The notes beneath the pieces were generated by a model. It was given only the letters and a program-made list of their open reading frames with translations. It was not told the origin of the DNA and searched no databases. A program made the translations under genes and the position numbers. From Eledone cirrhosa (lineage: Eukaryota): 64,000 nt of DNA. Shown here piece by piece: positions 8,054-58,122 of the stretch; the stretch's first letter is position 1; every line of letters starts with the position of its first letter. Location: NCBI GenBank assembly GCA_964016885.1, contig OZ024753.1, positions 29,946,001 to 30,010,000 on the forward strand. The letters are read 5' to 3'.

Positions 8054-8108
8054 ACTGCTATATATTTTTCAGTGACAGCCATCTTTGGCTGTGACCTCTT
8101 CAGGCAGT
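8054..8108 (-). ncRNA. Type I hammerhead ribozyme, left-arm inverted copy
   Basis: Reverse complement of 8431..8485 with one substitution in stem III (GAAAAATATATA). Confidence 0.75.
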
Positions 8109-8430: not shown

Positions 8431-8485
8431 ACTGCCTGAAGAGGTCACAGCCAAAGATGGCTGTCACTGAAATATATATAGCAGT
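8431..8485 (+). ncRNA. Type I hammerhead ribozyme (intact core), right arm of foldback
   Basis: ACTGC-CTGAAGA-GGTCACAGCCA-AAGA-TGGCTGTCACT-GAAA-TATATA-T-A-GCAGT, immediately followed by AATAAA. Stem I 5 bp, stem II 10/11 bp, palindromic stem III ATATATAT. Confidence 0.8.
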
Positions 8486-30894: not shown

Positions 30895-32408
30895 TACATT
30901 CTATTTTTGGCATGATTTCTACTACAGCTTGATGCCATTTTTACCACCACCAACAAACACTTTACAAAGAGTACTTGATACTTTTTACTGTGTCGCTAAG
31001 ACTATTAAAGCCTTAGTAGTACCACAGTCAAACAGTAATCACAATTTTGAAATATTCAAGTCTTTTACTATCTTAATTAAGTCTTCATTGTAAATGAACT
31101 TCATTTAGATTGAAATTTATAATGAATTTCGCTCCATTTGAGATGAAGTACACTTCAAGGAATGCTCTTTGTTTGAGATGAAAATGTCTCCTCCTCCACC
31201 AAAAGGTGCCACCCCAAAACCTCAATCTCTTTATTTTACAGTATGCCAACTTGCATTTCTTTTGTTTCAATTTTCAATCCAGTTGATGTTAACACAGACA
31301 TATCATTAGCTATCTCATTCTAGTGACTTCTCTTAATTACTTACTTTATTGATTACACTTGTTTATTCCTAACATCAGAAGGATTTGGACTTCAATGAAA
31401 GGCAGCTGCAAATAATGTGTTGATAAAATATTTTATCGTGATTCTCTTCTATTTTATATATTTGGTTTATTTGCTTTGAAAGTTATATGGCAATTGAGAG
31501 TTTGAAAACTTTGAGATTCCAAAGTGAAGCTTTGCAACCATAGTTATAGCTAATATTGATCCAAATTTTAGAACTGTTGTTCTCTAGAAATAGTTAAACC
31601 AGCAGCAAATATTGCTAATATTTCGAAGGGTAGAGGTGTATAAGGAACTGACATTTACTGGGTAAAATGTCATTAAATGACATCTAACAACTTCTCAGAC
31701 TTATAATCAATATGATCTCTGTTATTTATTCTGAAATTTAATTTTCATTATATTAGGCCAGTAAGTGAACAATGAAAATGTTCTGACTTTGAAGATAGAA
31801 TTCAAAATTCTTTCTTGTATATTTTGTTATTCGGCTTTTATAGATTTATTCATTGTTTAAAAAAAAAATTTTTTTTAAATTAGTCAATTCTTTTCTACAA
31901 GATTATGATTAATATTTTTTTTATCAACTTAGGTTAGTTTGTCACATTTGATAATTTCTGCTTGGTTATTTCTCAGAAACGTTGACAGATTATTTCTATA
32001 ATCTAAATTCTGTGTATTGGTTATTATACTGTTCGCTTAGGCAAAGCATTTCACACTTCTTGTCCTTCTCAAGGTCACTGAGAATGAATACCATCACATT
32101 TCAAGTTTTAGTGGTTGTGCTGTAAAATAACTGTTCCAATAAATTCTAGAAATATTTATATTTTTCACTATTTAAATATTTAAATTTTTCAATATTCTAT
32201 AATAAAATTTAGATAGGTGAGAATGCGTGTATGGGAATAAATGTATATCTGTGTATGCATATAATTCTTAAAGCTCGCATAAGAGATGACACATGGTTGC
32301 AGGGGTTAGATGGGTTGTCGTGTTATGAGGCTTATATTTACCAAAACCTGATGTTCTAATTTTCTATCTTGATGTCTTTCTTTCATTTTAAAGATTGTAA
32401 GTTGTAAT

Positions 32409-32637
32409 TTAACCCTTTAGTATTTACATTACTCTATATATACTATTGTATTTTCATGGTAAAGGCTTTACCTCACTTAATCATCTCACATAATATTGAA
32501 TCTACGAGATTTTGTTGTTATTTATTTTGAGAACAATGCCTTAACGTCAGTATGAGCGGCCAATTATAGCCAGTTTGGACAGAAAAAGGTGACAGAATTC
32601 TGGATGGATATAGCTGGCTTAAATGCTAAAGGGTTAA
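32409..32637 (-). mobile_element. MITE family A
   Basis: Reverse-orientation copy with both TTAA ends. Confidence 0.85.
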
Positions 32638-32899
32638 AGTTTGTAAGGTGCAATTTGAAGGAGATTTGGATACTATTTCTAGTGAGTCAAACCACTGCAT
32701 GGTGATTTTCTCATTGGCTCATAATGAAACTTGCTTTTAATGGTGTATTTGTATAGCATGTATATTCCAAGCCTGAAGACTAACAATCGCTTAAACTTGG
32801 TGTAATTGGCTGCTCATACTTATGTTAAGGTATTGTTCTCAAAATAAATAATATCAAAATCTTATACATTTGATATTATGTGCGATAATTTTCTATGAA

Positions 32900-32954
<55 letters not shown>

Positions 32955-33088
32955 TAGAAGGGATATTTAATTTATTGGAAATTCAACAAATATAAATGTT
33001 TATAACTGATTCAGAGCACTCGACAGATTTCTGGAGTAAATATTCAATGATATTAAATAAATGGAAACTATATTTATAAAACCATATT

Positions 33089-33150
33089 TATTCTATTATA
33101 TATATTTCAAGAGTACCAAAAACTTTGGTACGCTTTCATCAGATAAAATA
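33089..33150 (-). ncRNA. Type I hammerhead ribozyme, third copy
   Basis: Same fold as 33364..33425 with one further stem II substitution. Confidence 0.78.
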
Positions 33151-33363
33151 CAAAGTGTGTTTTATAAATTTTGACATAGCCAAGGAAACATACCTTATCA
33201 GTTGAATTTTCCTTGGATATCCAAGGAAAATTCAACTGATAAGGTATGTTTCCTTGGCTATGTCAAAATTTATAAAACACACTTTGTATTTAGAATTTAC
33301 ATTATATATATATATATATACACAATATTAAATAAATGGAAACTATATTTTTAAAACCATATT

Positions 33364-33425
33364 TATTCTATTATATATATTTCAAGGGTACCAAAAACTT
33401 TGGTACGCTTTCATCAGATAAAATA
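33364..33425 (-). ncRNA. Type I hammerhead ribozyme, inverted copy
   Basis: Minus strand TATTTTAT-CTGATGA-AAGCGTACCAAA-GTT-TTTGGTACCCTT-GAAA-TATATATA-ATAGAATA; 8-bp stem I. Confidence 0.8.
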
Positions 33426-33551
33426 CAAAGTGTGTTTTATAAATTTTGACATAGCCAAGGAAACATACCTTATCAGTTGAATTTTCCAAGGAAAATTCAA
33501 CTGATAAGGTATGTTTCCTTGGCTATGTCAAAATTTATAAAACACTTTGTA

Positions 33552-33609
33552 TTTTATCTGATGAAAGTGTACCAAAGTTTTTGGTACCCTTGAAATATAT
33601 ATAATAGAA
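33552..33609 (+). ncRNA. Type I hammerhead ribozyme (intact core)
   Basis: TTTTAT-CTGATGA-AAGTGTACCAAA-GTT-TTTGGTACCCTT-GAAA-TATATA-T-A-ATAGAA. Stem I 6 bp, stem II 11/12 bp, palindromic stem III. Confidence 0.8.
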
Positions 33610-35241
33610 GAAATATGGTTTTATATATATAATGTAAATTCTAAAGGGTTGAATACCAGTAGTATCCTCTGGTCACAAAGATTTTTTTTCGTTTTATAAC
33701 TATCTTGTGTGTATATAGTGGGGTGCACAGATCTTTACTGTTGTTTTTTTTTACTGATTATTTTTATTTTGTTTTTGGTTTTCTTTAAATTGATGATGAT
33801 GATGACGACTATTATTTCTAATGAAGTTCTTTGATAAGACCTATTTTCAATGTTCACCGAAAGTTTCTGTTGACTTCAATCTGAAAAGAGATTATGTTGA
33901 CTAAGTCTAACTTCTTTTACTCCTTTCCTTTACCAGGAAAATATTTCATCTGTTAGAGAATATGTTTATCACCAGTGTCATGCATGCCAGGCTAGAATCT
34001 AGTTATCAGTAGTACATTCAAGCATTACTATAGTTATCAGCTAACTTGATAACTGATCTACTCAACAGAATATAACACAGCCACCATTTTAGACTCACCA
34101 AATTCCTTTTCAAACCTACTAGTTTACTAAGTGAGATAATATTTAATTTTTAATAAGATCATTGCTACTTTTGGTGTGTTCATTGTTCATAAATATCTCT
34201 TATAGAAGAAAGAGTGAATATATTATGGGGAATATTTAGATATTCATGTTATATGTAAATCATAGTATTTAAATTGCAAGTGAGCTTGTGGGGGTGGGAA
34301 GGAGAACATGATGGAATGAATGATATCAGATTCTGTTTCAGGTGATACAGATATGTGAATTATACACTGAGAATTAGGTGAAGTTGTGTATTGAATGGAA
34401 ATTAGGTCACTACTATTTATGATTGTTTTACAAATGTTGTGAAGTTGCTTTGTATTTTAGTCAAAGTTACAAAAATACAACAAAAGATTGGCCAAGTTGG
34501 TAAGAAATTTGTTGATGAAAACTGAGTGATAAATTATCTATTGTGAGAATGCTGTGGATGGTAGCCAGGATAGTTTTAGGATAAAATTGCAAATGGATAG
34601 GGCAGGCGGAGGTGGTGGTGGTGGTGGTGCTGCTGAATGAAGTGAAAATATCAGCTGGTGGTAAATAGTAGCCAAAATATAGAGGTATGCCAAAAAAACA
34701 CATATGGAATGAAATAAAGATGAGTTTCTAATTTAGGCACATGGCCAGCAATTTGGGCGTGATGAAAGTCAATTAAATTGTCCCCAATATTCGACTGGTA
34801 TTTTATTTTATCAACCCTAGAAGGATGATATTAGTGGATATATATACTCATGGTTTCTAATTTAGACACAAGGCCAGCAGTTTGGGAGAGATGAAAGTCC
34901 ATTATTCGATCCCCAACATTTGACTGGTATTTTATTTTATCGACCCTGGAAGGAAACAAAGCAAAGTTGATCTCAGTGAGATTCAAACTCAAAATATAAA
35001 GTGCTGGGACAAATACCACAGATTATTTTGTCTGGTATTCCAACAAATCTGCTAATTCACTGCTTTTTGTGGATATAATAAATTCTTATTTTCAATTTCT
35101 GGTTATAATTATTTCTTTTTACTTATCTTGCTAGTGCACTGGAAAGGCATGAATATCACACAGTCTCATTTCTCCTCTTTAAATTTGAGGCAATGTGGTA
35201 CGTAAGAAAACAATTTTGGTGGCATTTCAGTTCAGACGCAT

Positions 35242-58079: not shown

Positions 58080-58122
58080 ACAGTCCTGATGAGGGGTAAT
58101 GACCCAGAAACATGTTGATTGT
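58080..58122 (+). ncRNA. Minimal type I hammerhead ribozyme
   Basis: ACAGTC-CTGATGA-G-GGGT-AATG-ACCC-A-GAAA-C-AT-G-T-T-GATTGT. Stem I 6 bp (one G.U), stem II 4 bp behind a G.A first pair, palindromic stem III ACATGT. Lies in a ~250-bp island between TA tracts. Confidence 0.7.

What the first reader, a model, noticed from the sequence alone, without database searches (positions are those of the whole stretch)
32952..33650. Double foldback with three hammerheads nested in a MITE, including an inverted copy of flanking host DNA
There are two palindrome centres and three ribozyme copies. The two minus-strand copies are in direct tandem 275 nt apart, the geometry needed for dimeric cleavage and release of a unit-length RNA as in retrozymes. 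33290..33310 is the reverse complement of the MITE tail at ~33625..33643, so flanking DNA was copied into the element, implying template jumps at or after integration.
Basis: partly seen in the sequence, partly recalled or inferred. Interest (0 to 1): 0.75.

Follow-up and report, generated by a model that had tools for sequence, protein, structure and literature searches.

The report
Penelope insertion with flipped flank DNA
This is one of about 1,500 copies of the ribozyme-bearing end of a Penelope-type jumping gene; it sits here as two folded-back pairs with 24 letters of neighbouring host DNA flipped between them, most likely a scar left while the insertion was being repaired and not a factory for small circular RNA.

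Summary
The structure is real: two palindrome centres, three type I hammerheads (two on the minus strand, cut sites 275 nt apart), and an exact 24-nt inverted copy of the right flank, inside the TA tract of a MITE. It is not a retrozyme. The hammerhead segment is the pseudo-LTR of a Hydra-clade Penelope-like element (1,526 exact core matches; RT plus GIY-YIG-type ORF upstream in long copies). The 275-nt unit's junction occurs once in the genome, and its ribozymes are predicted to misfold. Family copies insert as head-to-head arms, one ending at pLTR site q174 and one at tail site q267 (69 of 73 pairs). The window obeys this rule, but its q174 arm is flipped together with the flank that primed it (1 of 170 loci). 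Likely cause: both cut ends primed reverse transcription and folded back, and the right hairpin was then opened in the flank. Earlier scan notes found the two-arm rule on other DNA of this genome. I found in no note or paper searched that arms starting at the initiator A carry an extra G (55 of 100, control 15 of 94), the likely print of a copied RNA cap.

The parts
32789..32904 (+). Left part of the host MITE (copy B, lacking its own left end), ~230-bp TTAA-flanked family
   Evidence: BLAST to other window copies; alignment with the insertion removed
32905..32952 (.). (TA)24 target tract, left end; longer than the short TA tract of other MITE copies
32952..33219 (-). S1: pLTR plus tail arm (q267->q0), begun at the tail start site next to (TA)n
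   Evidence: the same end recurs in the family
33089..33150 (-). Hammerhead in S1, type I, palindromic stem III, predicted cut after 33097
33218..33291 (+). S2: fold-back arm q0->q73; centre 1 is the shared TA at 33218-33219
   Evidence: (I4, 100% over 73 nt)
33289..33322 (-). S3: inverted copy of the right flank (24 nt exact) with (TA)9 and CA; TTT microhomology to S2
   Evidence: junction unique in the genome
33323..33487 (-). S4: pLTR arm q174->q7, begun at the pLTR start site next to the flipped (TA)9
33364..33425 (-). Hammerhead in S4, predicted cut after 33372 (275 nt from the S1 site)
33485..33625 (+). S5: fold-back arm q2->q144; centre 2 with TCC microhomology; joins the TA tract by TATA microhomology
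   Evidence: same centre at 7 loci including this one
33550..33611 (+). Hammerhead in S5 (7 of 8 stem I pairs), predicted cut after 33603
33622..33653 (+). Right tail of the host MITE, the source of S3

Best explanation
The locus is a short insertion of a Hydra-clade Penelope-like retroelement into the TA tract of a MITE, in which both ends of the cut DNA likely primed reverse transcription and the right end was then likely folded into a hairpin and reopened 24 nt inside the flank, flipping that flank and its arm into the insert. Shown: family identity, fixed arm ends at q174 and q267, arm starts piled near an initiator (TCACT) with an excess G, the flank origin of S3, and 2-4 nt microhomology at all four junctions. 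Inferred steps: (1) the element's RNA starts, capped, at the initiator A 3 nt before q1; (2) its enzyme cuts (TA)n and starts copying internally at two sites, the left end at q267 (S1) and the right end at q174 (S4), each running almost to the RNA's 5' end; (3) the cDNA ends anneal head to head through 2-3 nt and are extended as DNA copies (S2, S5); (4) S5 skips to the TA tract and closes the right end as a hairpin; (5) a nick in the AT-rich flank and fill-in open it, and TTT/AAA end joining seals it to S2. The hammerheads are passengers here; the locus would not make unit-length RNA.
For: Parent: in long copies the RT (YRDD), CxCx5C linker and GIY-YIG-type EN lie upstream of this pLTR on the same strand, with Hydra motifs RWR and DKT (definitions). 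1,526 exact 23-nt core matches. Head-to-head pairs with both outer ends assignable: 58 of 61 and 11 of 12 are one q174 arm plus one q267 arm; the other 30 of 103 pairs had one truncated end. The window has exactly one of each, and its q174 arm is attached to the flipped (TA)9 plus flank. Arms share subfamily alleles (site 21: 42 of 42 pairs agree) and rare alleles (12 of 52 pairs), so both come from one source. Centre 2 recurs at 7 loci; centre-1-type junctions recur at L024 and L025 and, with short spacers, at 19 loci. Other multiple fold-backs without flank occur (L126, L062, L009). S4 and S5 share no derived change, which favours a flip at integration. Precedent: the Anolis PLE protein cuts and extends both strands from two internal sites (PMC11167929); L1 ends give inverted duplications of flank DNA by small hairpins (bioRxiv 10.1101/2024.12.14.628481); R2 cDNA ends snap back onto cDNA or nearby target DNA (PMC11371274).
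Against: Sequence alone cannot separate hairpin opening from polymerase template jumps; both give this product. Neither centre can be a simple snap-back of one cDNA onto itself: centre 1 has no loop, and centre 2 needs q5-q6, which S4 lacks. A second antisense strand must be assumed. The timing test rests on 7 mutations, and the ratio against a flip at a quarter of the age is only 2:1. Flank capture was seen in only 1 of 170 loci, so there is no second case to compare; this is a lower bound, since copied (TA)n would be invisible. No read or contig bridges the junctions. Loci were picked by score or by motif, not at random, and segmental duplicates were only partly removed.
Confidence: 0.55

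Rival explanations
1. Same element and timing, but one polymerase (the RT or a repair polymerase) made the product by four template jumps: from the q174 arm to the flank at TTT, back through the arm, round at TCC, and on to the TA tract. No hairpin was opened.
For: All four junctions have microhomology. Repeated short jumps near the arm junction are common in the family (L009, L074, L079, L160).
Against: It needs a sense-strand template carrying the right end's (TA)9+CA, and loss of the original arm. No other of 170 loci shows a jump into recognisable flank.
Confidence: 0.2
2. A normal two-arm insertion came first; later a replication fork stalled at its 174-bp palindrome and template switching (FoSTeS/MMBIR type; recalled) made a local inverted triplication.
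For: Long palindromes are unstable (recalled). The layout fits a trimmed inverted triplication of arm plus flank. L126 shows an inverted triplication of an inner segment.
Against: S2, S4 and S5 share no derived change, and their private changes (5 in 383 nt) are not fewer than S1's (2 in 267); ratio 7.5:1 against half age. Centre 2 is the same junction found as the only centre of ordinary insertions (L051, L052, L054).
Confidence: 0.17
3. Assembly artefact from fold-back reads.
For: Palindromes are hard to assemble (PMC8557442). No contig bridges the junctions.
Against: The arms differ by private substitutions and indels, which a duplicated read would not give consistently. S4 begins at the family's own start site, and centre 2 recurs at other loci.
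Confidence: 0.04
4. A retrozyme-like locus whose two minus-strand hammerheads cut as a dimer and release a 275-nt RNA, or a local RNA-templated re-insertion of the element's own read-through transcript.
For: Cut sites are 275 nt apart with palindromic stem III, the dimer geometry (PMC4209133). Scan notes report true retrozymes elsewhere in this genome (unchecked).
Against: The unit is unique and only 168 of 275 nt repeat. Stem I pairing probability is 0.00 in three constructs. Neither minus arm reaches the initiator A. The segment is the pLTR of a coding element.
Confidence: 0.04

Closest known systems
Hydra clade of C-terminal EN+ Penelope-like elements (Craig et al. 2021, PMC8557442; passages and section 11 read; supplements not read)
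   Same: RT then GIY-YIG-type EN; CxCx5C linker; RW[K/R] and DKT motifs; CxxC and CxH near the EN end; hammerhead in the pLTR; (TA)n target; inverted 5'-truncated copy with a one-sided tail.
   Different: The tail is about 93 nt (q175-267), not 30-40. The unit is about 3.6 kb by my estimate from L210 and L211, against 'generally <3 kb'. The passages read describe no double fold-back with flipped flank. Supplementary File S1, not seen, may already list this family.
Adineta vaga Pen2a_Av and relatives (PMC3846280; passages read)
   Same: Inverted pLTR with a tail on one side, palindromes at the inverted junction, an Inr-like TCACT in the pLTR.
   Different: That paper proposes self-priming on an antisense template. 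Here the arm starts pile at the sense-strand initiator with an extra G, which points to a capped sense RNA copied from both DNA ends.
Poseidon_Ac in vitro (PMC11167929; parts 1-2 of 4 read)
   Same: Both DNA strands are cut and extended; copying starts at two internal RNA sites that bound the tail; AT-rich target.
   Different: Different clade. There the ORF begins at the hammerhead; here the ORF begins downstream of the tail. Joining of the two cDNAs was not studied there.
L1-induced inverted duplications of flank DNA (bioRxiv 10.1101/2024.12.14.628481; passages) and R2 snap-back junctions (PMC11371274; passages)
   Same: A retrotransposon-made DNA end folds back through ~2 nt of homology and leaves an inverted copy of target DNA at the insertion.
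   Different: Those are non-LTR elements with one primed end, and the L1 inversion example given is 917 bp. Here both ends carry cDNA, and the flip is 24 nt plus a whole arm.
Metazoan non-LTR retrozymes (PMC7229834, abstract only; bioRxiv 10.64898/2026.07.22.740005, part 1 of 5)
   Same: Type I hammerheads in the same orientation, 170-400 nt apart.
   Different: No head-to-tail family unit, a single locus, a coding parent, and predicted misfolding.

Membership tests
Hydra-clade Penelope-like element | Single ORF with RT and C-terminal GIY-YIG EN linked to this pLTR | tested here: met
   RT and EN matches upstream of pLTR+tail on the same strand in L211, L212, L213; all copies seen are broken; Pfam gave no hit on three fragments
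Hydra-clade Penelope-like element | CxCX5C linker, no CCHH, CxxC and CxH around the conserved E and N | tested here: met
   CNC-5-C linker, CKLC and CRH in translations of L033, L037, L048, read against the definition
Hydra-clade Penelope-like element | N-terminal RWK-type motif and DKT in place of DKG | tested here: met
   RWR in L210; codons for SDKT read from L210 near 1640
Hydra-clade Penelope-like element | Hammerhead in the pLTR and insertion into (TA)n | tested here: met
Hydra-clade Penelope-like element | Phylogenetic placement of RT/EN in the clade | not tested
   No named reference proteins held; 9 unnamed homologs only
EN+ PLE insertion architecture | Inverted 5'-truncated pLTR with a tail on one side only | tested here: met
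   69 of 73 assignable pairs are q174 arm plus q267 arm; the window has one of each
Non-LTR retrozyme | Head-to-tail repeats of a full unit, each with a hammerhead | tested here: not met
   168 of 275 nt repeated; the rest is an antisense arm and host DNA
Non-LTR retrozyme | The unit is a dispersed, non-coding family | tested here: not met
   Unit junction 1 match genome-wide; the segment is the end of a coding element
Non-LTR retrozyme | Expressed as linear and circular unit RNA | not testable with these tools
   No RNA holder listed
Type I hammerhead (dimer-dependent kind) | CUGANGA and GAAA boxes, stems I and II, short palindromic stem III, NUH site | tested here: met
   three families with the same stem III show compensatory stem I and II changes, and 2 of 1000 shuffles reach the observed pairing; no Rfam hammerhead hit
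Type I hammerhead (dimer-dependent kind) | Self-cleavage | not testable with these tools
   Folding predicts inactive conformers at this locus

The most novel reading that the evidence does not exclude
The locus is a fossil of the missing middle step of Penelope-type retrotransposition. The enzyme copies one capped RNA from both ends of a break, right through the cap. The cap-derived base helps join the two cDNAs head to head, and the ends pass through hairpin-closed intermediates that the element's own endonuclease opens. The usual inverted pLTR with a one-sided tail would be the normal outcome and this flipped-flank insert the off-centre one. That would replace the antisense self-priming model for PLE palindromes.
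Probability: 0.25. Interest if true: 0.65.

Novelty: new variant of a known kind. Interest (0 to 1): 0.36.

Why it matters
How Penelope-like elements make their inverted ends and one-sided tails is stated as open in PMC8557442 and PMC11167929. This family gives concrete, testable coordinates: a likely RNA start (initiator A with an extra G), two copying starts (q174, q267) and a one-of-each rule. The window adds a rare product in which the primer-side flank travelled with its arm, which ties the q174 arm to one DNA end. As a single locus it has no likely function, and the retrozyme idea does not hold.

Tried and rejected
Rfam at gathering score and at E<=10: no hammerhead; only miRNA-like hairpin matches below threshold, explained by the palindromes. 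Pfam on three ORF fragments: nothing. First read as Neptune clade; changed to Hydra after note e1-9560118. First took the pLTR end as q182; the true end is q174, since the (TA)n target aligns by chance to q175-182. Tested whether the arms come from different RNAs: site q107 differs in the window but is discordant in 6 pairs and shared in 1, so it is uninformative. The S4 and S5 variants recur in 34 and 16 exact matches; the fetched copies are mostly older and 76-94% identical, and I did not align their haplotypes. Sequencing runs: no RNA holder listed. Contigs and RAD reads bridge no junction; two contigs cover the right flank up to 33622 and have 6 unshown letters beyond it, which is inconclusive between filtering, an empty allele and another allele. 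L055 looked like a twin of this locus, but its first arm is of an older subfamily, so it is two insertions. Twin start-site hairpins: weak at q174 (z -1.6), not supported at q267 (z -0.5). Hammerhead core conservation within the family is biased by motif-based picking and was not used. Literature searches for cap-derived G or twin priming in PLEs (titles and listings only) and a note search showed nothing on it; most subscription papers are not in the library.

Full report
Observation. With q as the reverse complement of window 32952-33218, the locus reads: MITE left part, (TA)24, S1 (minus, q267 to q0), S2 (plus, q0 to q73), S3 (inverted right flank, (TA)9, CA), S4 (minus, q174 to q7), S5 (plus, q2 to q144), MITE tail. 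Centre 1 is a perfect 73-bp palindrome and centre 2 has a 2-nt spacer. S3 matches 33622-33645 at 24 of 24 bases and carries the T found only in this MITE copy among 10 aligned, so it was copied from the local flank. The three hammerheads have the conserved boxes, an 8-bp stem I, a long stem II and the palindromic stem III ATATATAT; the minus-strand cut sites are 275 nt apart. Rfam lists no hammerhead family for them. Three families in the fetched loci and the window share this stem III and show compensatory changes in stems I and II; 2 of 1000 shuffles reach the observed stem I pairing over 21 distinct types.

Identity. The window lies in a 3.0-Gb genome, where the 23-nt ribozyme core has 1,526 exact matches. 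Walking upstream from long copies gave a broken ORF with an RT (YRDD), a CxCx5C linker and a GIY-YIG-type endonuclease with CxxC and CxH motifs. In L211, L212 and L213 this ORF precedes the pLTR and tail on the same strand, with an inverted truncated copy in front. L210 shows the tail reading through into the ORF start, with RWR and DKT motifs. These are the features given for the Hydra clade in PMC8557442 section 11. I did not build a tree. The lead to Hydra came from note e1-9560118.

Family rule. Outer ends fall at two places, q174 and q267, mostly followed by (TA)n. Of 103 head-to-head pairs, 73 had both outer ends assignable, and 69 of these were one q174 arm plus one q267 arm (58 of 61, 11 of 12). 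The two arms of a pair share subfamily alleles (site 21, 42 of 42; site 19, 42 of 43) and, in 12 of 52 pairs, rare alleles. They therefore come from one source RNA or element, although later gene conversion between arms is not excluded. This matches the Anolis protein, which cuts and extends both strands from two internal sites (PMC11167929). Earlier notes on other DNA of this genome report the same rule.

RNA start. Of 239 arm starts, 129 lie between q-5 and q10, with the peak at the A of TCACT (part of the loci were picked by motifs at this place), an initiator-like motif also noted in PMC3846280. Genome-wide, 396 exact matches keep the native C before that A and 278 do not. Among the first 100 listed of the latter, 55 have G, 27 A and 18 T (counted by hand), against about 20% G expected (p about 2e-14). 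One base further in, 15 of 94 have G (counted). Point changes at C sites are mostly to T (56 T, 16 A, 15 G). In 19 such loci fetched, the G follows varied sequence, including bare (TA)n; in others it also fits the opposite arm as microhomology. An extra G at the 5' end of reverse transcripts is the known print of a copied cap (recalled from L1 work; not read here). I infer a capped sense RNA starting at that A. Searches showed no report of this for PLEs. The window's own arms stop 2 and 9 nt short of this site, so they carry no G.

The window. It has exactly one q267 arm (S1, on the left TA tract) and one q174 arm (S4). S4 is still attached to a TA tract and 24 nt of the right flank, all flipped. 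S3 plus S4 is thus the right end's primed strand, moved to the other strand. Centre 2 is a junction found at 7 loci, and at L051, L052 and L054 it is the only centre. Centre-1-type joins occur at L024 and L025. Multiple fold-backs without flank occur at L126, L062 and L009. An internal inverted copy of recognisable flank was found in 1 of 139 loci (the window itself) and 0 of 31 more. This is a lower bound, because many flanks are pure (TA)n, and the loci were not a random sample. S2, S4 and S5 share no derived change; a Poisson comparison on 7 changes favours a flip at integration by 7.5:1 over half the age and 2:1 over a quarter.

Mechanism. Most likely both ends primed, the cDNA ends joined head to head through TA and TCC and were extended, S5 skipped to the TA tract and closed the right end, a nick 24 nt into the flank opened it, and TTT microhomology sealed it to S2. 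Inverted duplications of flank DNA from small hairpins are described for L1 ends (bioRxiv 10.1101/2024.12.14.628481), and snap-back onto cDNA or target DNA for R2 (PMC11371274). Against: neither centre is a simple self snap-back, serial template jumps give the same product, and a later replication switch is only weakly disfavoured. No contig or read bridges the junctions; private differences between the arms argue against an assembly artefact.

Retrozyme reading. The geometry exists, and such ribozymes are thought to work as dimers with low activity (PMC4209133). But only 168 of 275 nt repeat and the unit's junction is unique in the genome. Stem I pairing probability is 0.00 in all three minus-strand constructs folded; forcing both monomer-type active folds costs about 20 kcal/mol, and a read-through RNA buries the S4 ribozyme in a long hairpin. 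I did not model the intertwined dimer itself. Retrozymes are defined as tandem, non-coding, expressed units; the first two tests fail.

Verdict. The feature is real and of a known kind, in a rare form. The locus itself is a repair scar. Its value lies in tying one arm to one DNA end and, with the family-wide extra G, in giving coordinates for a direct test of how Penelope-like elements make inverted ends. Supplements of PMC8557442 were not read and may already list this family.

Noticed in passing
window 8067-8103 (-) and 8436-8472 (+): Another head-to-head pair of hammerheads with the same ATATATAT stem III but different stems I and II; likely a second Penelope-type family.
   Followed up: partly
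window 58086-58110 (+): A short CTGATGA..GAAA core with a 4-bp stem II, possibly a minimal hammerhead of a third family.
   Followed up: no
window 32408-32637: A complete copy of the same TTAA-flanked MITE lies in the opposite orientation 150 nt upstream of the host copy; about a dozen full or partial copies lie in the window.
   Followed up: partly
L064 1520-1610: The first 11 nt of the tail arm occur twice more, each separated by (TA)n, as if copying was started, aborted and re-primed after TA addition, in a telomerase-like way.
   Followed up: no
L200 and L223, inside the pLTR: A 100-120 nt repeat is inserted at the hammerhead's AT-rich stem III region, with a short duplication, at two independent loci.
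   Followed up: no
L052 1347-1516: One arm differs from its partner by dozens of T>C and G>A changes (element sense) while the partner is near consensus, suggesting editing of one arm.
   Followed up: no
L160 about 1660-1760: Three tandem copies of a ~33-nt piece of the arm start lie between the two arms, a sign of repeated jumps at the junction.
   Followed up: no
flanks of many loci (e.g. L006, L010, L148, L149): Other palindromic inserts sit directly beside family copies in the same TA tracts; in L006 one carries a hammerhead core, so Penelope-type families appear to pile up in shared targets.
   Followed up: no
L209 (G000:C1:253239000-253247500): Two ORF-bearing copies in opposite orientation with pLTRs between and outside them, a large-scale version of the head-to-head layout.
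   Followed up: no
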